From sequence record OR352952.1: a stretch of 64,000 nucleotides of DNA; one strand, 5' to 3'. The position numbers and the translations under genes are program-made. The notes under the pieces are model-generated. The model was not told the DNA's origin. It saw only the letters and a program-made list of their open reading frames with translations, and did no database searches. Shown here piece after piece: positions 26,185 through 33,851 of this stretch. This DNA comes from Escherichia phage AV122. Each line of letters begins with the position of its first letter. The first letter of the stretch is position 1.

Positions 26185-26237
26185 CCTCATGTTATGTCAG
26201 TAAGACTACTATAACACAACACGAGGGACTTGTAAAC
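26185..26237 (-). repeat. 53-nt exact direct repeat, copy 1 (early promoter plus leader)
   Basis: Identical to 42052-42104. Confidence 0.85.
26208..26237 (-). promoter_or_regulatory. early promoter (GTTTAC-17-TGtTATAGT) for ORF 25886-26176
   Basis: -35 GTTTAC overlaps the alt TAG stop; extended -10 TGnTATAGT; part of the 53-nt repeat. Confidence 0.6.
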
Positions 26238-28294
26238 TACATTTTGAACTTTTTAGACATTCCGTTGATGTTAACCAAAGAAGCCAAGATTTGAGAAACT
26301 TCGTTTTCCTCTTCTTTTGATTCTTCTACAAGGAATTGATTAAATCCAGCCATTGGACGAACTTCACCAGTTTCCATTAGATGGTCGCCATCATATACCG
26401 ATTCCTCTAATTGTTCAGAAGGAGGAACGATTGTACCTTCTATTAGATACTTGTTATAAGCAGTTTCTTTCATAAAGTACGTGCTCACTTTATTAATCTT
26501 CAGTAAAATTCCACGTGGTAGAATAACTTCAGCTTCTGATGGAAATCCTGATAAATGACCTGGAACGATAACTTTGATTCGCTCAGCTCCTTTAATTACC
26601 ATACCCACGCTAGTTTCAGCATCTTCATTAGCATATGTAGAATGACTACCCATATGCATCAAATCTTCTGCATCAACGGAACCTTCTCCTTCACCAGAAA
26701 ATACTGCGCCGGAATCATCTAGAGCCATATAGTTTTTACCATGCTCACCGAAGATATTTGGTTTAAGTGATGTCGATACGAAGTTCTTGAAATAGAACAT
26801 TTTATTTTCAATATTGTGACGCAAAGTTTTAAAGGTAACTTCTTGTCCACGGTAAAGTGTAGTTCCTGGAGGAAGAACTGAACCTTTAGCGAATGCAGAA
26901 TCCAGCGTCTCAATATGTTTAATAGCTCGTTCCATATATTCTTCACGGGTAGAATCTGGTTTACCCAAAAGGAACGAGTTCATTTCAACATATGAATCTG
27001 CGCAATAATCTTCAATTACGTCAGATTCAGCCTGAGTTAATCCTTTTGGAGTTACTTCAGTACTTGCATATTCATATGCCTGAGCGGCAGATTCATTAAT
27101 CAATTTATAAATGCCATTCATGACAAATTGAATAATAGCTGTCTTTTCATCTGGCGTAGCTTTAGAACCTTTAACTAAATCATTGATAATTTTCTTAATA
27201 ACATCAAAACTATTAGAAATATTAATATCAGCAAGATCGCTTAAAATTTTATCAGTTTTATAATCAAAGAATTCTTTATTCTTTAAATATTCTTGAGAAC
27301 CTTGATATGTTATATCGCTCTGCAACTTGATAGATGGATCGCGTAAACGTGCATGGGCTAATGCAATATGATTTCGGAAACTTTCTAGTTCATAATCGTT
27401 AGATTTAAAACGAGAAGCACTTCTCATACCGCCGATAGCTCCTTTGCCGAAGTTTGAACCAATCTGAATAACGCCAGAGTTCATTGGTCCTTCTGCTTTA
27501 TATACCGGAACTTTAGATTCAAACTCTTGATATTTCTTAGCAGCGAAGCTATCACCCTGAAGTGAAGCATCAACAGTAGAATATTGAGCTTGTGCTGCTA
27601 ATCGACGACTAATTTTAGTTTTCTGAATAACAGCTTGATCCGTACGCTTATCATTTTCTAAAGCAATAGAAGCAGCAACTGCGACAGCTTTAGGAACAGC
27701 ATTACCTGTTTTAACGTCTACATAAACATCACCAACCTTTGATTCAACTTTTGTGAATAACTCAGTTGAAATAGGAGGTACACCTGGAATGTCTTCTAAA
27801 TTGGCATTTTTACGGTAAACCATAATATATGCATATTTCTTATCATAGTCCCAGATTTCCTTTAAAAGAACATATCGACCTGCTCCTTTAGTACGTACTA
27901 AACGGTCAGCAATAACTTGCATTTGACGAGCAGCGCCATTTGTTTTACTCTTTAGTACGCGGAATAAGCATGCATCAATTTTATACTGTTTCATTGTTTG
28001 AAGAGCAGTATCAAAAACAGCATTAATGACGCCAATTGGATTTCCACCCAAGTTTTTAAGCTTAACTAATGATAGTTTCTCATTAACACCTATCATTACG
28101 ATATGCATCATTTTGTCGCCTGGCTTAACGTTTTTATTCGTATCACCGCCAGAGGTGTATGTACAAAATCTAAATCCAGGAAGCACGCTTTCTTCACCGG
28201 CTTGAATAGCAAAAATTTGAGGTATTTTATGCTTAGGATTTAAGTTAACAACCGGCGCCGAAGCGCCGTCAAATAATTCTGTAATAAGTTCCAT
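26237..28294 (-). CDS. alt: Alt-family ADP-ribosyltransferase (paralog A, 685 aa)
   Basis: N-terminal MELITE capsid-targeting-like motif; R-S-E motifs (LYRGQ, FVSTSL, EAEVILPRG); SD AAGGA. Confidence 0.85.
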   Translation of the reverse strand: MELITELFDGASAPVVNLNPKHKIPQIFAIQAGEESVLPGFRFCTYTSGGDTNKNVKPGDKMMHIVMIGVNEKLSLVKLKNLGGNPIGVINAVFDTALQTMKQYKIDACLFRVLKSKTNGAARQMQVIADRLVRTKGAGRYVLLKEIWDYDKKYAYIMVYRKNANLEDIPGVPPISTELFTKVESKVGDVYVDVKTGNAVPKAVAVAASIALENDKRTDQAVIQKTKISRRLAAQAQYSTVDASLQGDSFAAKKYQEFESKVPVYKAEGPMNSGVIQIGSNFGKGAIGGMRSASRFKSNDYELESFRNHIALAHARLRDPSIKLQSDITYQGSQEYLKNKEFFDYKTDKILSDLADINISNSFDVIKKIINDLVKGSKATPDEKTAIIQFVMNGIYKLINESAAQAYEYASTEVTPKGLTQAESDVIEDYCADSYVEMNSFLLGKPDSTREEYMERAIKHIETLDSAFAKGSVLPPGTTLYRGQEVTFKTLRHNIENKMFYFKNFVSTSLKPNIFGEHGKNYMALDDSGAVFSGEGEGSVDAEDLMHMGSHSTYANEDAETSVGMVIKGAERIKVIVPGHLSGFPSEAEVILPRGILLKINKVSTYFMKETAYNKYLIEGTIVPPSEQLEESVYDGDHLMETGEVRPMAGFNQFLVEESKEEENEVSQILASLVNINGMSKKFKM

Positions 28295-28297
28295 GAT

Positions 28298-30391
28298 TTA
28301 TCCTTGAACGAACTTGTAAGGCATGTTTGTAATATCTATGCAAGACGCAATAATTCCAAGAGATGATTCTACTTTCTGTTTAACGTTTGATGAAACAAAT
28401 GATGCAAAGTCAACTCTGTCTTCTATTTCAATATCACCTGTCATTGCAACTACTTCGCCGGTTTCCATTAAATGGTCTCCATCATAGATTACCGATTCGG
28501 TGAGCTCTTCCGTGGTCATAACTTCAGCTTGAATGAGTTTTGTATTATTAGACGTGGTTCCGTCATTATTAGAAGCATCAGTTATTTTATTAACTTTGAC
28601 CATCAATCCGCGCGGTAGAATAACTTCAGCTTCTGTTGCTATTCCGAGACTTCCTGGATATACAACATTAACTTTATGAGCTCCATCAATTGCCCATCCT
28701 ATTTGAACTTTAACGTATTCAGGATTTTCTTTATACGCTCTTATTTCGTTTGGATTAATAGTTATTCCTTCTTCATTTTTATCAACTGTCAATTCATTAC
28801 GAGCTTCTGGTTCTAAAAGACCAATACCAGCATGTGTAATTCCAAAACGTCCAAAAATGATAGGAGTTAAAGAAGTAGATACAAAATTTCTGAAATAGAA
28901 CACTTTATTTTTAACTAGTGCTTCGTATATAGGAGCAGTCATACTTTGAGCACGATAAACTGTGATGCCTTCCGGTATGCGGTCACCATTTTCAAAAGCT
29001 GAATCTAAGTTATTTATAGCAGATTCAATTTCTTTTTCACTCATTACATCATATCGTTCTGGATTGTAACGACCTAAAAGAAGATTATTGATGTCAGTAT
29101 ATCCTGAACCACAATATTCTCTAATGCCACGCTTTTGTGATGGAGTATATTTAGAACCATCGCGGGCAATAGTAATATCAATCATTGGACCAGCACCAAT
29201 TCCAGAAAAACTGTAAATCATTCGTTTGAGGAATTTAGTTTTTGCTGCGTTCCAGGAATTTTTAGTTATTTCTTCCCAGACTTCATCTGGTTGTCCTTTA
29301 CGATTTTTATTATGATTAGCAAGCCATTTATCTTTATAATCTTCAAAGAATTGATTTACAGCTGCTGCGTATTTCTCTAAACATTTTATTGAAGTAGTTG
29401 GTTCATTTTTAATTGCATTAAAAATTACTTCTTTAATTTTTTCTGAAACTTCACCGACTTGACTCATTGGAAAGAATTTATAATCATAGTGAAGTTCATC
29501 TGCCGTTCCTTCAGCAATAATTTTTGCTGCCTTTGTTTTAGAAGCTAATGAATTAATTCCAATTTTCATTTCTTCTGCTTCGGGAATTAAAGGTGCAGTA
29601 GCTGGTTTATTAAAATTAGCTGCTGTAGATTCATACTTCTGGAATAATTCACTTTCAAATCTAGAAGATTCCAATGACTGACTTTGTGCAATTGCTCTAC
29701 GGGAAATTTTAACTTTAACGATTACGGCTTGGTCAGAACGTTTATCATTTTCTTGTGCAATAGATGCAGCAATTGCCTCATTTTTAGTTACTTGAGCTCC
29801 AGTATCTTTATTGATATAAACATCACCGACCTTCGATTCAACTTTAGTAAAGAGCTCGGTGCTAATTTCCGGAACTCCTGGAATGTCTTCTAGTGATACA
29901 TTTTTACGATGTATAAGAATATATGCATACTTTTTATCGTAATCCCAGAGTTCCTTAAGAAGGACGTATCTGCCACCTGAACGACTGCGGATAAGTCTAT
30001 CAGCAATAAGTTGAATTTGACGAGCTTGACCAGCAGTTTTAGACTTAAGAATACGAAGCATGCAGGCATCAATTTTATATTGACGCATTGTTTGCATTGC
30101 AACAGTAAAAACTGAATTGATATAATTAATCGGGCTTGGACCGAGACCTTTTAATTTAGCAATTGAACCTTTAGCAGTTAATGTAAAAGGAACAATATGC
30201 ATCATTTTATCGCCCATCTTTAAATCGCGATTAGTATCACCTCCAGATGTATAGGTACATAAACGAAAGCCTGGTTGTTCAATTGCGTCATCAACATGAA
30301 CTGAAAAAATTTGTGGTATTTTCTTCTTTGGATTTAAGTTTGTAATCGGAAGAGTAGTATCTTCGTCAAATAATTCTGTAATGAGTTCCAT
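28298..30391 (-). CDS. Alt-family ADP-ribosyltransferase (paralog B, about 697 aa)
   Basis: N-terminal MELITELFD; R-S-E motifs (VYRAQ, FVSTSL, EAEVILPRG); TATAAATA late promoter 24 nt upstream; start taken as second ATG (30391). Confidence 0.85.
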   Translation of the reverse strand: MELITELFDEDTTLPITNLNPKKKIPQIFSVHVDDAIEQPGFRLCTYTSGGDTNRDLKMGDKMMHIVPFTLTAKGSIAKLKGLGPSPINYINSVFTVAMQTMRQYKIDACMLRILKSKTAGQARQIQLIADRLIRSRSGGRYVLLKELWDYDKKYAYILIHRKNVSLEDIPGVPEISTELFTKVESKVGDVYINKDTGAQVTKNEAIAASIAQENDKRSDQAVIVKVKISRRAIAQSQSLESSRFESELFQKYESTAANFNKPATAPLIPEAEEMKIGINSLASKTKAAKIIAEGTADELHYDYKFFPMSQVGEVSEKIKEVIFNAIKNEPTTSIKCLEKYAAAVNQFFEDYKDKWLANHNKNRKGQPDEVWEEITKNSWNAAKTKFLKRMIYSFSGIGAGPMIDITIARDGSKYTPSQKRGIREYCGSGYTDINNLLLGRYNPERYDVMSEKEIESAINNLDSAFENGDRIPEGITVYRAQSMTAPIYEALVKNKVFYFRNFVSTSLTPIIFGRFGITHAGIGLLEPEARNELTVDKNEEGITINPNEIRAYKENPEYVKVQIGWAIDGAHKVNVVYPGSLGIATEAEVILPRGLMVKVNKITDASNNDGTTSNNTKLIQAEVMTTEELTESVIYDGDHLMETGEVVAMTGDIEIEDRVDFASFVSSNVKQKVESSLGIIASCIDITNMPYKFVQG

Positions 30392-30414
30392 CATATCCTC
30401 TCTAGTGTTTATTC

Positions 30415-30427: not shown

Positions 30428-30445
30428 AAAGGCCCGAAGGCCTTT
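30428..30445 (-). terminator. stem-loop upstream of the Alt B late promoter
   Basis: AAA-GGCC-CGAA-GGCC-TTT. Confidence 0.5.
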
Positions 30446-30632
30446 AATAATCTATTGGTAAGAGAGTACGATATATTTCAAACTTTGGACCTTTTTCATA
30501 GGCATCAAATGTTTCTGTGAATTTATTATAAGCATATGCATCTATAAATTCAATCGTGATTTGTGATACAGAAGTAGAAACATCTCCACCTTCTTTTTGA
30601 GCCACGACAATTGTTTCTAAGTAAGCTTTCAT
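30444..30632 (-). CDS. hypothetical small protein between gene 30 and alt
   Basis: 62-aa ORF; ATGA overlap with gene 30 stop. Confidence 0.45.
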   Translation of the reverse strand: MKAYLETIVVAQKEGGDVSTSVSQITIEFIDAYAYNKFTETFDAYEKGPKFEIYRTLLPIDY

Positions 30633-32092
30633 AAACCAGTTACCTCATGAAAATCGCCAAATACATCTTCGAACGTATTAGCTTTAGTTTTATCTTCACG
30701 TAAACGAATCGCAATCGGAAGAAATAATTTAACGTAATCAGTGCGGCCATCAGATTTTAACCAACCGTTGCATTCGCACTCTAGAATTTTTCCAATATAA
30801 TAATTTTGGTTTTCCATAATGCGAGTACGGTCAAGTTCATGCGATTTTACACCAGCTTTATCTTTTAAGCCTGAACCAGCATTTACTTTAATTTTTCCAC
30901 ACTCTGACTCAAGAACGAAACCACCTGCTTTAGTAGGGTCTTTACGGTGAGGATAAATTCCTACAATTTTTAAATCAACATCAATTACTTCTTTAAATTT
31001 ATAAAGATTTTTTGAACGAGCATTTTCCCATAATCCATCGATATTTTTGAGAATAATACCTTCAAGACCTTGGTCAATATACTTTTTGTAAATTACCTTA
31101 GCTTCATCTAGGTTATTTACTACCTGGTTTTCAATTAAAATTACTTTGTCATATCCTGATGTCATTTGTTCTAGTTTAGAAAAACGTACATCATATTTTA
31201 AACGAAATGCTGGAAGACCATATATTTCTACTAATGGAACATAGTCCCAGACCTGAAACTTCATGCATTGTGCTTCTTTTTCAGAAATGGTTCCCTTTAA
31301 AGATTTATTAGCGATTCCATTAGAAGCAGTACGTGATTCAGCTACTTCGGCGAATTCTTTAGCTTTACTAATTTCAGGATAAGCATCAAAAAGAAAATCT
31401 AGGCCTTCTGGTTCCTTTTCAACTTGCTCATGGTATACCAATTCGCCATCAATTAACACACCTTCTGGATGAATCTGGCGGGCTTCAGCAGTCATTTTAA
31501 TTAACTCTTCCTTAAGAAGATCTAATCCTAGATATTCATTACCAGCTCGTGATAAAAGACGAACATCATCTAATTCATCACCTCTGACTTCAGCAAAGCA
31601 CCGAGCTCCATCAGCTTTTAATTGGGCAAAGGCTGGAAATTTGATATTCTTATTAATGCCTTTTTCATCATAAGAACTTGCCAGCATTTGAGGTTGTTCA
31701 GGAATTAAACCTGGCCAAACTTTGTTTGCAATAGATACTGATGCACCGCATTCAAGGTCTCGCATCATCACCCGACGCAAAACTTCAACATCATCTTTTT
31801 TACCGTCAGCAATATATCCAGTTAATTCCTCAATTGCCGTATTTCCGGTCAATTTCCGAGTAGCTAACGTGAATTCAATGAAGTCAAGCATATCGGTAAG
31901 AGTCAACATTCCAAAACTCTGGGTAGCAATACCAGGTTTAGGCCATTTCTTGATATAATACTGTAACCCACGAGAATAAGTCAGACGATATACTCGTTTA
32001 AGCAATTCATTATCTTTATTCTTTTCAAGAATTGCTTGCTTCTGCTTAGTTGAACCAATAGATGCTATTTCGTTCAGAATTTTAAGAATCAT
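30629..32092 (-). CDS. 30: ATP-dependent DNA ligase gp30
   Basis: 487 aa as T4 ligase; adenylation motif KADGAR. Confidence 0.95.
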   Translation of the reverse strand: MILKILNEIASIGSTKQKQAILEKNKDNELLKRVYRLTYSRGLQYYIKKWPKPGIATQSFGMLTLTDMLDFIEFTLATRKLTGNTAIEELTGYIADGKKDDVEVLRRVMMRDLECGASVSIANKVWPGLIPEQPQMLASSYDEKGINKNIKFPAFAQLKADGARCFAEVRGDELDDVRLLSRAGNEYLGLDLLKEELIKMTAEARQIHPEGVLIDGELVYHEQVEKEPEGLDFLFDAYPEISKAKEFAEVAESRTASNGIANKSLKGTISEKEAQCMKFQVWDYVPLVEIYGLPAFRLKYDVRFSKLEQMTSGYDKVILIENQVVNNLDEAKVIYKKYIDQGLEGIILKNIDGLWENARSKNLYKFKEVIDVDLKIVGIYPHRKDPTKAGGFVLESECGKIKVNAGSGLKDKAGVKSHELDRTRIMENQNYYIGKILECECNGWLKSDGRTDYVKLFLPIAIRLREDKTKANTFEDVFGDFHEVTGL

Positions 32093-32358
32093 TGTTCATC
32101 CTTTAGAGTTTGGTTTACAGCTCTATTATAAATCAATTCATCATTAAGCTCAGTCAAAGACCTGTGGTACGTTGTTCTAACTTTATTTCCTTGCATCCAG
32201 TGCTTGACGTAAATGAAACCTTGCTCTACACATTTTTTAAAAATTCGTTCGTCTTTTTGAGCTCGGAATTCTGGATTGCATCTAAAAAATTGATTTACGT
32301 GACCGTAATCACGTGTAGTATTACCTTCATTTTCATAAATAGTGTGAACGACAAACAT
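32089..32358 (-). CDS. hypothetical protein (T4 30.1 position)
   Basis: 89-aa ORF translationally coupled to gene 30. Confidence 0.5.
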   Translation of the reverse strand: MFVVHTIYENEGNTTRDYGHVNQFFRCNPEFRAQKDERIFKKCVEQGFIYVKHWMQGNKVRTTYHRSLTELNDELIYNRAVNQTLKDEQ

Positions 32359-33197
32359 TAGAATGCTCCTTGGAAAATATTATCACCACTAGTAGGTCTA
32401 TTATACAAATACTCTATGCCACCAGGTTTAATATAGTTCCATGTCTGAAACGGATGTGTCTGATATGGATGATATAGATGATTATAAGGATTAAATCCAG
32501 GAGTTCTCCAGGTAGTGTTCCAAGGAAAAGAATCGTTTTTGATCATCTTCTCAATTACATCTTTTATAAATTTTTCACTATCAAAACTTTCTTTATTTTC
32601 CTTCGATGGAAAAAGCTTATTCTCTACATCATTCCATGTATAAACTCGCTGTGCAGTTTTTGGAATACTGTCACGCTCTCCTCGAGCCATCCAATAAACT
32701 GGAACATTTAATATTTCACTCGCATGATCGCAGTGGTGAGCGAGATCGTCAATATAACAAATTACGTTATATTTCTCTTTTGCCTTTTTGAACAACTCTT
32801 CTTTTGAAGAATCATGACCACACATCAATATTTCTGAGAAGGCACCAGGAAAAAGAGCATTCAAATTAAATTGACGATTCAGCAAAGCATCAATAGAATC
32901 ACCCAATGCTGTAACAGCTACAAAATTATAATCTTCTTTTAATTTGTTAATTACACACAGGGCATCTTTATATGGAGACAAGTAACGAATAAAATCTGAA
33001 CGATTGTATTTTTCAATTAACTTGACGCCAAGTTCTTCATCACAATTAAAGAGTTTACCAGGAGAAATAAATTTCTCATCTTGGATCATTTTTAAAATAT
33101 GTTCTAACGGAAGATTATATTTCTGAGCAAAATAAGGAAGGCCTGATTGCCAGCTTAAACATACTCCATCAATATCAGTCAAAATAGTAGGCTTCAT
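32358..33197 (-). CDS. HAD-superfamily phosphatase-like protein (T4 30.2 position)
   Basis: 279 aa; N-terminal DIDGV (HAD motif I) and CYIDD (motif IV-like). Confidence 0.6.
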   Translation of the reverse strand: MKPTILTDIDGVCLSWQSGLPYFAQKYNLPLEHILKMIQDEKFISPGKLFNCDEELGVKLIEKYNRSDFIRYLSPYKDALCVINKLKEDYNFVAVTALGDSIDALLNRQFNLNALFPGAFSEILMCGHDSSKEELFKKAKEKYNVICYIDDLAHHCDHASEILNVPVYWMARGERDSIPKTAQRVYTWNDVENKLFPSKENKESFDSEKFIKDVIEKMIKNDSFPWNTTWRTPGFNPYNHLYHPYQTHPFQTWNYIKPGGIEYLYNRPTSGDNIFQGAF

Positions 33198-33652
33198 AGA
33201 GAGTCTCTTAATAGGTTTAACACATCAATAAATTCAGCTTCGGTTAGTATTGTATCATCTTTTGTTAGATCACTAGCCATGCTGTGCTTCAAAACTTTTC
33301 CTTTCGAGGCTTGTAATGCATCACGAAAGCCCTTGTTTTGGATCGCTGCTTCAAAATATGCATTTGTGTATAATTCTTTCCACGCCGGGGAGTATCTTGA
33401 AAACGGAACTCCAAGCCAGAAGAGGGTCCCACGGTCCTGAGCTCTAGCATAAGACCTTCCAGCTTGTTGGGCGGCAAGCCCGGATAACCCAAATATACGA
33501 CGTTGTTGTTCAACATTTTTCACCTTGCATCCTTGGAGGAATCCTTCAAGACCTCCAAATTGAATACCATCCATGACGAAAGGCCATTGGGCGAAATTAC
33601 TTAATGCACATGATGGCCACCTAAAATTGCTTCTAATCTCTAACTCAGACAT
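33194..33652 (-). CDS. NADAR/YbiA-like protein (T4 30.3 position)
   Basis: ATG 33652 (track start 33658 is TTG); LSNFAQWP...EGFLQGCK resembles the YbiA/NADAR FSNF..WP...E.YFQA.K signature. Confidence 0.5.
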   Translation of the reverse strand: MSELEIRSNFRWPSCALSNFAQWPFVMDGIQFGGLEGFLQGCKVKNVEQQRRIFGLSGLAAQQAGRSYARAQDRGTLFWLGVPFSRYSPAWKELYTNAYFEAAIQNKGFRDALQASKGKVLKHSMASDLTKDDTILTEAEFIDVLNLLRDSL

Positions 33653-33851
33653 TTTCAATGCTTATAATTTCAACATCAGCCCAATGACCATAGCAAGGAA
33701 GACGAAATTCAACTGGCCAGTTAGGGTCCTTTTCTAATATAATAGACTTAACTTGTGGTTCTTCATGTTCATCAGTATATGGATTTTTATCTGTTACTTT
33801 ATATGTGACCTTAATGTACTGAATTCCAAAAATCTTATTAATTATATTCAT
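33645..33851 (-). CDS. hypothetical protein
   Basis: 68-aa ORF with ATG in the 30.x cluster. Confidence 0.45.
   Translation of the reverse strand: MNIINKIFGIQYIKVTYKVTDKNPYTDEHEEPQVKSIILEKDPNWPVEFRLPCYGHWADVEIISIENV

What the first reader, a model, noticed from the sequence alone, without database searches (positions are those of the whole stretch)
32358..33652. NADAR/YbiA-like ORF and a HAD phosphatase-like ORF next to the Alt ADP-ribosyltransferase pair
The ORF ending at 33652 carries LSNFAQWP...EGFLQGCK, closely resembling the YbiA/NADAR signature FSNF..WP...E.YFQA.K. NADAR domains act as ADP-ribose-processing hydrolases, including reversal of guanine ADP-ribosylation on DNA by DarT-type toxins. 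Its neighbour 32358-33197 has HAD motifs DIDGV and CYIDD. Together with the two Alt genes within 3 kb this forms a cluster of ADP-ribose-related enzymes. It could be counter-defence against host DarT-like systems, or processing of phage-made ADP-ribosyl adducts. The functional link is inference.
Basis: inference. Interest (0 to 1): 0.45.

Follow-up and report, generated by a model that had tools for sequence, protein, structure and literature searches.

The report
T4 AdfN NADAR plus neighbouring HAD phosphatase
The two genes are phage T4 genes 30.3 and 30.2: the first is AdfN, an enzyme already shown by experiment to strip ADP-ribose off phage DNA and defeat the bacterial DarTG1 defence, and the second is an uncharacterised HAD-type phosphatase that published T4 data show is not needed for that counter-defence.

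Summary

**ORF 33194-33652 (minus strand)** is gene 30.3.
- It is 150/152 identical to T4 gp30.3 and matches Pfam Phage_30_3 at E=2.7e-70.
- Its model's only convincing structural matches are the three solved NADAR structures.
- The catalytic residues E36 and K43 and the phage-clade residue H123 are all present.
- T4 gp30.3 is published as AdfN: it removes ADP-ribose from guanine in DNA, and T4 needs it to grow on DarTG1 hosts.

**ORF 32358-33197 (minus strand)** is gene 30.2.
- It gets no direct Pfam hit.
- It has all four HAD motifs (D8xD10, T96, K132, D150-D151) and a confident C1-capped HAD fold.
- It carries a disordered, hypervariable C-terminal tail.
- Profiles place it closest to 5'(3')-deoxyribonucleotidase-like (NT5C) phosphatases. 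Its substrate is unknown.

**The proposed ADP-ribose enzyme cluster is not supported.**
- In T4 transposon sequencing under DarTG1, gene 30.3 drops 150-fold, while 30.2 and alt are unaffected.
- Across T4-like phages, 30.2 stays beside the DNA ligase gene, whereas 30.3 is often about 55 kb away.

The finding is ordinary and mostly already explained.

The parts
33194..33652 (-). Gene 30.3 = adfN, a phage-clade NADAR DNA ADP-ribosylglycohydrolase of 152 aa. Catalytic codons: E36 at 33545-33547, K43 at 33524-33526, H123 at 33284-33286. The C-terminal helix (aa 138-151) is intact.
   Evidence: Pfam PF08010 E=2.7e-70. 150/152 identical to T4 gp30.3. AF2 model pLDDT 94. Foldseek top three hits are YbiA 2b3w, PnNADAR 8bau and G. 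lovleyi NADAR 8bat. E36 and H123 are invariant and K43 nearly invariant in 57 homologues. Codons checked. Function published for T4.
32598..33197 (-). Gene 30.2, N-terminal catalytic domain (aa 1-200): a C1-capped HAD-superfamily phosphatase. Motif I is D8/D10 (33168-33176), motif II is T96 (32910-32912), motif III is K132 (32802-32804), motif IV is D150-D151 (32745-32750). W16 (33150-33152) is invariant.
32358..32597 (-). Gene 30.2, C-terminal tail (aa 201-279 plus stop): one short helix, then a W/P/Y-rich segment predicted disordered. Contains GGIEYLYNRPT.
   Evidence: pLDDT <50 for aa 224-279. Tails of homologues range from 0 to 147 aa and are hypervariable. 14 of the 100 homologues match a loose G..[IVL]EYL pattern, and 13 of them read GTG[IL]EYL.
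33645..33851 (-). Gene 30.4 (68 aa, unknown function), directly upstream. Its stop overlaps the 30.3 start by 8 nt. Listed as context only.
   Evidence: phrog_2042 E=2.2e-35. T4 annotation. Junction. In T4 Tn-seq under DarTG1, log2FC -1.79, q=0.014.
30629..32358 (-). Genes 30.1 (DUF3045, 32089-32358) and 30 (ATP-dependent DNA ligase, 30629-32092), directly downstream of 30.2 in the same tightly packed gene string.
   Evidence: Pfam PF11243 and PF01068. A ligase homologue lies just downstream of 30.2 in 71 of 77 loci.
26237..30394 (-). Two Alt-type ADP-ribosyltransferase genes. 28298-30394 is 71% identical to T4 Alt. 26237-28294 is 41% identical and sits where T4 has the alt.-1/alt.-2 remnants. 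Listed as context; not shown to work with 30.2 or 30.3.
   Evidence: PF03496 E=9.8e-38 and 5.9e-20. Comparisons with T4 Alt. T4 annotation. alt is neutral under DarTG1 in T4 Tn-seq.

Best explanation
These are two unrelated enzymes that sit side by side in the T4 early-gene string 30.4-30.3-30.2-30.1-30.

Gene 30.3 is adfN.
- It is a minimal phage-clade NADAR.
- It cuts the bond between guanine N2 and ADP-ribose on phage DNA that the host DarT1 toxin has modified. This releases ADP-ribose and restores replication.
- It is the phage's anti-DarTG1 factor. This is shown by experiment for the 99%-identical T4 protein and inferred here by identity.

Gene 30.2 is a Mg-dependent HAD phosphatase.
- It has an Asp8 nucleophile, an Asp10 acid/base and a helical C1 cap. 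A cap of this kind implies a small-molecule substrate.
- Its closest relatives are the NT5C-type 5'(3')-(deoxy)nucleotidases. The most likely job is dephosphorylating a (deoxy)nucleoside monophosphate as a dispensable nucleotide-pool accessory. The substrate is inferred, not shown.
- Its disordered, fast-evolving tail has no known role.

Neither 30.2 nor Alt is needed for AdfN's counter-defence. The clustering reflects inherited T4 gene order, not a functional module.
For: gp30.3:
- Pfam PF08010 E=2.7e-70, and 150/152 identity to T4.
- 23 of 57 relatives also hit Pfam NADAR PF08719, best E=1.5e-7. The family profile hits YbiA 2b3w at E=0.0069.
- The AF2 model has pLDDT 94, and its only convincing PDB matches are the three NADAR structures.
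- E36 and H123 are invariant and K43 is nearly invariant.
- Published for T4: G-ADPr removal in vitro (PMC11125620; PMC12945103). Deletion sensitises T4 and T2 to DarTG1, ectopic expression rescues RB69, and E36A and K43A weaken the protein (PMC11825919). Tn-seq gives log2FC -7.25 under DarTG1.

gp30.2:
- D8, D10 and K132 are invariant, and T96 and D150-D151 nearly invariant, among 44 homologues. D8, D10, R108 and K132 are invariant and W16 nearly invariant among 123 more distant ones.
- The model has pLDDT >90 over aa 1-190.
- The A3 profile hits 3bwv at E=4.9e-7 over its full length. 44/123 relatives hit NT5C, best 4.2e-10, against only 1 for HAD_PNKP.

No coupling between the genes:
- T4 Tn-seq is neutral for 30.2 and alt under DarTG1, and for 30.2 in M9 versus LB.
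- 30.2 is non-essential, with 72/72 sites hit.
- Synteny counts.
Against: - gp30.2 itself gets no hit in Pfam or NCBIfam. Its NT5C link rests on relatives and on borderline E-values for the closer profile (E=0.034).
- No substrate has ever been tested.
- T4 has no described need for a dNMP phosphatase, and no phenotype was seen for 30.2 in the three Tn-seq comparisons I read.
- The genes overlap by ATGA, and about half of the loci holding a 30.2 homologue keep the pair together. A redundant or conditional link therefore cannot be excluded.
- AdfN of T4 needs an unidentified T-even factor for full activity, so AdfN's mechanism is not fully closed.
- The phage in this window itself has not been tested.
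Confidence: 0.8

Rival explanations
1. gp30.2 is the missing T-even-specific helper of AdfN, or otherwise handles a product of ADP-ribose removal. For example, it might dephosphorylate an ADP-ribose breakdown product. On this view 30.3, 30.2 and perhaps Alt form one ADP-ribose module.
For: - The stop of 30.3 and the start of 30.2 overlap (ATGA), which suggests translational coupling.
- The pair is adjacent in all close T-even relatives and within 1.3 kb in 36 of 77 loci holding a 30.2 homologue.
- AdfN of T4 works fully only during T-even infection, so a phage co-factor has been proposed (PMC11825919).
Against: - T4 Tn-seq under DarTG1: 30.2 log2FC -0.12, p=0.61 over 71 sites, and alt -0.01, against -7.25 for 30.3.
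- In at least 11 T4-like genomes the 30.3 homologue lies about 55-60 kb from 30.2.
- About 59 of 80 loci holding a 30.3 homologue have no 30.2 homologue within 5 kb.
- Overlapping stops and starts occur at every junction in this gene string, so they are not specific to this pair.
Confidence: 0.05
2. gp30.2 is a nucleic-acid end-healing 3'-phosphatase, like the HAD domain of polynucleotide kinase-phosphatase. It would prepare nicks for the DNA ligase encoded just downstream.
For: - A gp30 ligase homologue lies just downstream of 30.2, on the same strand, in 71 of 77 loci, mostly within 600 nt.
- There is a weak match to phrog_415 'polynucleotide kinase' (E=0.0025).
- 1 of 123 relatives hits HAD_PNKP.
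Against: - The protein has a large helical C1 cap (aa ~12-88). From established HAD knowledge, such caps are typical of small-molecule enzymes, while enzymes acting on macromolecules are usually capless.
- Sequence profiles favour NT5C 44 to 1 over HAD_PNKP.
- Distant relatives persist in T4-like loci with no ligase nearby (L155-L158).
- T4 gene order is broadly inherited, so adjacency alone is weak evidence.
- T4 already has PseT for this chemistry (own knowledge).
Confidence: 0.1
3. gp30.2 is a catalytically active HAD enzyme with a non-nucleotide small-molecule substrate, such as a sugar phosphate, phosphoglycolate or a cofactor phosphate. Alternatively it is a counter-defence phosphatase acting on a host signal or toxic nucleotide.
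For: - One source names a homologue 'FMN phosphatase YigB'.
- The hypervariable tail could be an arms-race interface.
Against: - The only full-length sequence-profile match to a solved structure is a deoxyribonucleotidase-like protein.
- NT5C is the most frequent Pfam match among relatives.
- W16 aligns with the aromatic residue eight positions after the nucleophile in cdN.
- No defence-dependent phenotype was seen under DarTG1, the only one of the paper's defence screens in which I read the 30.2 value.
Confidence: 0.2

Closest known systems
T4 AdfN (gp30.3), the phage-clade NADAR / Pfam PF08010 Phage_30_3
   Same: - 150/152 identical, same length and same genomic position.
- Same catalytic E36 and K43 and the phage-specific H123.
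- Intact C-terminal helix.
   Different: Two substitutions (I125M, G128D) just after the catalytic His. I125M moves towards the family consensus. Activity of this exact allele is untested.
DarG1 (the DarT1-associated NADAR antitoxin) and E. coli YbiA
   Same: - Same YbiA fold (Foldseek TM 0.58-0.68).
- Same conserved Glu and Lys.
- Same chemistry: guanine-ADPr hydrolysis, published.
   Different: - No N-terminal extension.
- His replaces Asp (DarG1) or Glu (YbiA) in the last strand.
- T4 AdfN does not neutralise DarT1 in uninfected cells and does not remove C-ADPr.
NT5C family 5'(3')-deoxyribonucleotidases (cdN/mdN; S. epidermidis 3bwv; Pfam PF06941)
   Same: - HAD core with a four-helix C1 cap.
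- DxDGV motif I followed by an aromatic residue at nucleophile+8.
- The family profile matches 3bwv over its full length (E=4.9e-7).
- 44/123 relatives hit PF06941.
   Different: - gp30.2 itself is below every Pfam threshold and only about 15-20% identical.
- It has its own conserved signature (WQSGLPYF, YNxSDFIRYL, LNRxFNL).
- It carries an 80-aa disordered tail.
- Its substrate is unknown.
T4 PseT / PNKP-type HAD 3'-phosphatase domain
   Same: DxDxT-type HAD phosphatase chemistry, encoded by a phage, near a ligase gene.
   Different: PNKP phosphatase domains lack the C1 cap that gp30.2 has. Only 1 of 123 relatives gives a weak HAD_PNKP hit.

Membership tests
NADAR superfamily, phage clade (gp30.3/AdfN) | YbiA fold: helical core flanked by small beta sheets | tested here: met
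   AF2 model pLDDT 94, pTM 0.89. Foldseek top three hits are the three solved NADARs, 2b3w, 8bau and 8bat. All other hits have E>2.
NADAR superfamily, phage clade (gp30.3/AdfN) | Conserved catalytic Glu and Lys (E88/K95 in E. coli C7 NADAR; E36/K43 in T4 AdfN) | tested here: met
   E36 is invariant and K43 is >=90% conserved in 57 homologues. Both codons are present in the window. Their roles are given in PMC11543638 and PMC11825919.
NADAR superfamily, phage clade (gp30.3/AdfN) | [quoted passage not shown] | tested here: met
   H123 is invariant in 57 homologues. It directly follows predicted strand 120-122.
NADAR superfamily, phage clade (gp30.3/AdfN) | Curated profile match | tested here: met
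   PF08010 at 235 bits against a cut-off of 36. The protein itself does not reach PF08719 NADAR at E<=1, but 23/57 relatives do, best 1.5e-7.
NADAR superfamily, phage clade (gp30.3/AdfN) | Full-length C-terminal helix (its loss in RB69 inactivates AdfN) | tested here: met
   152 aa with helix 138-151. The RB69 truncation is described.
NADAR superfamily, phage clade (gp30.3/AdfN) | Guanine-ADP-ribose glycohydrolase activity and DarTG1 counter-defence | not testable with these tools
   Shown for the T4 protein, 99% identical. Not tested for this allele.
HAD superfamily phosphatases | Motif I DxD (nucleophile and Asp+2 acid/base), motif II Thr/Ser, motif III Lys, motif IV DD | tested here: met
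   D8, D10 and K132 are invariant. T96, D150 and D151 are >=90% conserved in 44 homologues. D8, D10 and K132 are invariant in 123 distant ones.
HAD superfamily phosphatases | Rossmann-like HAD core with a cap inserted after motif I (C1 type) | tested here: met
HAD superfamily phosphatases | Curated profile match for this protein | tested here: not met
   No Pfam or NCBIfam family at E<=1. Only some relatives reach PF00702/PF13419, and weakly. Membership therefore rests on motifs and fold.
NT5C 5'(3')-deoxyribonucleotidase family (PF06941) | Profile-level relationship | tested here: inconclusive
   Not reached by the protein itself. 8/44 close and 44/123 distant relatives hit PF06941, best 4.2e-10. 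The A3 profile hits 3bwv at E=4.9e-7, and mdN/cdN at E 0.015-0.06.
NT5C 5'(3')-deoxyribonucleotidase family (PF06941) | Aromatic base-stacking residue eight positions after the nucleophile (Phe in cdN/mdN) | tested here: met
   W16 aligns with the Phe of NMDGVLADFESGL in mouse cdN and is >=90% conserved. That this Phe stacks on the base is from my own knowledge of the mdN/cdN structures.
NT5C 5'(3')-deoxyribonucleotidase family (PF06941) | Nucleoside monophosphate phosphatase activity | not testable with these tools
   My searches of the paper library for gp30.2, 'gene 30.2', NP_049815 and T4p204 found no paper on it.
PNKP-type DNA/RNA 3'-phosphatase | Capless HAD core open to polynucleotide ends | tested here: not met
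   A large C1 cap is present. Only 1/123 relatives gives a weak HAD_PNKP hit.

The most novel reading that the evidence does not exclude
gp30.2 is not a housekeeping nucleotidase. It is a ligase-linked or defence-related phosphatase, for example one that heals 3'-phosphate nicks for gp30 ligase, or one that destroys a toxic or signalling nucleotide made by a host defence. Its hypervariable disordered tail would serve as a fast-evolving interaction surface, and its phenotype would appear only on hosts or conditions not yet screened.
Probability: 0.12. Interest if true: 0.5.

Novelty: already known. Interest (0 to 1): 0.18.

Why it matters
There is little new here.

- The NADAR gene is T4 adfN.
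- The useful residue is negative. The tidy picture of an ADP-ribose gene cluster should not be carried forward, because published T4 transposon data and synteny both argue against it.
- gp30.2 remains one of the roughly 100 T4 genes without a function. This work narrows it to a C1-capped, NT5C-like HAD phosphatase that travels with the ligase gene. That makes a simple substrate screen worthwhile, but it is not surprising.

Tried and rejected
- Direct Pfam and NCBIfam scans of gp30.2 gave nothing. Single-sequence searches of PDB sequences gave only E~1 noise for both proteins.
- Literature searches for 'gp30.2', 'gene 30.2', NP_049815 and T4p204 found no paper on gp30.2. 'Phage_30_3' found nothing useful.
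- I considered gp30.2 as the unidentified T-even co-factor of AdfN. I rejected this because T4 insertions in 30.2 are neutral under DarTG1 and the two genes are unlinked in many T4-like genomes.
- I looked for a nutrient-dependent phenotype of 30.2 (M9 versus LB) and found none (log2FC -0.10).
- I looked for informative domain fusions among distant relatives (P0254, P0312, P0206 and others) and found none.
- The gene context of the most distant relatives (L155, L157, L158) was not decisive. By eye, L157 and L158 look like T4-like loci with replication and nucleotide genes.
- I could not inspect model coordinates to check active-site geometry.
Full report
**What is there**

The window is a T4-like Tequatrovirus. 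The 2-kb stretch around the finding is 98.7% identical to phage RB3 and its relatives, and 659 phage records match it.

On the minus strand the genes run in T4 order: 30.4, 30.3, 30.2, 30.1, 30 (DNA ligase), alt.1, alt, and a second alt paralogue. The two ORFs of the finding are gene 30.3 (33194-33652, 152 aa from the ATG that T4 annotates) and gene 30.2 (32358-33197, 279 aa). The proteins are 150/152 and 269/279 identical to T4 gp30.3 and gp30.2.

Every junction in this gene string has an overlapping stop and start:
- 30.4/30.3 overlap by 8 nt.
- 30.3/30.2 share ATGA.
- 30.2/30.1 share TAATG.
- 30.1/30 share ATGA.

The overlap between 30.3 and 30.2 is therefore not special to that pair.

**Gene 30.3 is a NADAR, and specifically AdfN**

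The protein matches Pfam PF08010 (Phage_30_3) at E=2.7e-70. It does not itself reach the general NADAR model PF08719. However, 23 of 57 aligned relatives do (best E=1.5e-7). Several relatives are named YbiA/DUF1768 by their source. The family profile finds E. coli YbiA among solved structures (E=0.0069).

An AlphaFold model built on 57 homologues is confident (pLDDT 94). Its only convincing structural matches are the three solved NADARs:
- YbiA 2b3w
- Phytophthora NADAR 8bau
- Geobacter lovleyi DarG1-type NADAR 8bat

The residues that define the family are in place. E36 and H123 are invariant and K43 is at least 90% conserved across the 57 homologues. H123 follows the last predicted strand. 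This is the position where the literature says phage NADARs carry His, in place of the Glu of YbiA or the Asp of DarG1. The C-terminal helix, whose loss inactivates the RB69 allele, is intact.

**This biology is already published for the T4 protein**

- Schuller et al. 2023 (PMC11543638) defined NADARs as guanine-ADP-ribose hydrolases and antitoxins of DarT1, and noted the phage clade.
- A 2024 study (PMC11125620) purified T4 gp30.3. It removes ADP-ribose from guanine but not from thymine in ssDNA, yet it does not rescue cells from DarT1.
- Johannesman et al. 2025 (PMC11825919) named it AdfN. Deleting it makes T4 and T2 unable to plate on DarTG1 hosts. Expressing it rescues RB69. E36A and K43A weaken it. 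It does not counter DarTG2.
- A 2026 study (PMC12945103) shows that it does not remove cytidine-ADPr.
- A T4 transposon-sequencing preprint (10.1101/2025.11.20.689424) independently finds 30.3 insertions lost under DarTG1.

One open point remains in the literature. AdfN of T4 is fully active only during T-even infection, so an unknown phage factor has been proposed.

**Gene 30.2 is a HAD phosphatase, probably nucleotidase-like**

The protein gets no Pfam or NCBIfam hit. It belongs to phrog_420, whose function is unknown.

Alignment of 44 homologues shows all four HAD motifs conserved:
- motif I, D8 and D10
- motif II, T96
- motif III, K132
- motif IV, D150-D151

In 123 more distant relatives, D8, D10, R108 and K132 are invariant. 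Asp at the +2 position marks a phosphatase or phosphomutase rather than a dehalogenase (established HAD knowledge).

The model is confident over residues 1-190 (pLDDT >90). It shows a Rossmann-like core with a helical cap inserted right after motif I, the C1 type.

Fold searches return only HAD enzymes:
- Foldseek gives 71 hits at E<=1e-3. They include the cytosolic and mitochondrial 5'(3')-deoxyribonucleotidases and the deoxyribonucleotidase-like protein 3bwv.

Sequence profiles are more discriminating:
- The family is large, with 1374 representative clusters at E<=1e-3.
- A profile of 123 members matches 3bwv over its full length at E=4.9e-7.
- 44 of the 123 members hit Pfam NT5C (best 4.2e-10), against 21 for the generic Hydrolase model, 20 for HAD_2 and only 1 for HAD_PNKP.
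- The nearly invariant W16 aligns with the Phe eight residues after the nucleophile in mouse cdN. From my knowledge of those structures, that Phe stacks on the base.

I therefore read gp30.2 as an NT5C-like (deoxy)nucleotide phosphatase, with moderate confidence in the substrate class and high confidence in the fold and chemistry.

Residues 224-279 are predicted disordered. Among homologues this tail ranges from 0 to 147 residues and is hypervariable and rich in W, P and Y. A subset shares a GTGIEYLxxQPT motif, seen in this window as GGIEYLYNRPT. Its role is unknown.

**Are the genes a functional ADP-ribose cluster? The evidence says no**

Genetics comes first. In the T4 transposon data under DarTG1 (Extended Data Table 6, sheet S6):

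| Gene | log2FC | Significance |
|---|---|---|
| 30.3 | -7.25 | q=0 |
| 30.2 | -0.12 | p=0.61, 71 sites |
| alt | -0.01 | not significant (p=0.97) |

Gene 30.2 is also non-essential (72/72 sites hit) and neutral in minimal versus rich medium.

Synteny points the same way:
- Of 77 viral loci with a 30.2 homologue, 71 have the ligase gene just downstream on the same strand. Only 36 have a 30.3 homologue upstream.
- Of 80 loci with a 30.3 homologue, about 21 have 30.2 within 5 kb.
- In at least 11 T4-like genomes the two genes lie about 55-60 kb apart.

The stable partner of 30.2 is therefore the ligase gene, not 30.3. Because T4 gene order is largely inherited, even that link is weak evidence of shared function. 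Distant relatives of 30.2 also occur in loci without a ligase.

Both Alt proteins do carry ADP-ribosyltransferase domains. However, T4 Alt modifies host proteins (T4 annotation). Nothing here or in the papers I read links AdfN to Alt adducts.

**Verdict**

The finding is a correct rediscovery of a characterised T4 counter-defence gene sitting next to an ordinary, still uncharacterised accessory phosphatase.

Noticed in passing
window 33645-33851 (-), gene 30.4: This 68-aa gene of unknown function overlaps the adfN start by 8 nt. In the published T4 Tn-seq under DarTG1 it is modestly but significantly depleted (log2FC -1.79, q=0.014). The simplest reading is a polar effect on adfN, but it could also be a candidate for the unidentified T-even factor that AdfN needs.
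   Followed up: partly
window 26237-28294 (-): A full-length second Alt paralogue (685 aa, 41% identical to T4 Alt, PF03496 E=5.9e-20) sits where T4 has only the alt.-1/alt.-2 remnants of an old alt duplication.
   Followed up: partly
window 32358-32597 (-), C-terminal tail of gp30.2: The tail is disordered and W/P/Y-rich, and hypervariable in length (0-147 aa) and sequence among homologues. 14 of the 100 homologues match a loose G..[IVL]EYL pattern, and 13 of them read GTG[IL]EYL. This is unusual for an otherwise conserved enzyme.
   Followed up: partly
window 33289-33516 (-): A 75-aa ORF lies in another reading frame inside adfN. It corresponds to the T4-annotated gene 30.3' ('internal translation in a different reading frame'). 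Whether it is expressed is unknown.
   Followed up: no
window 30444-30632 (-), gene alt.1: This 62-aa ORF between alt and the ligase gene matches the recent Pfam family PF24647 'Phage_blade' (E=2.1e-28).
   Followed up: no
loci L027, L029, L036, L051, L056, L065, L066, L077-L080 versus L096-L153: Many T4-like genomes of 160-176 kb carry their 30.3/NADAR homologue (about 38-43% identical) at a different genomic position, about 55-60 kb from the 30.2-ligase block. This suggests the NADAR gene has moved or been acquired separately in those lineages.
   Followed up: partly
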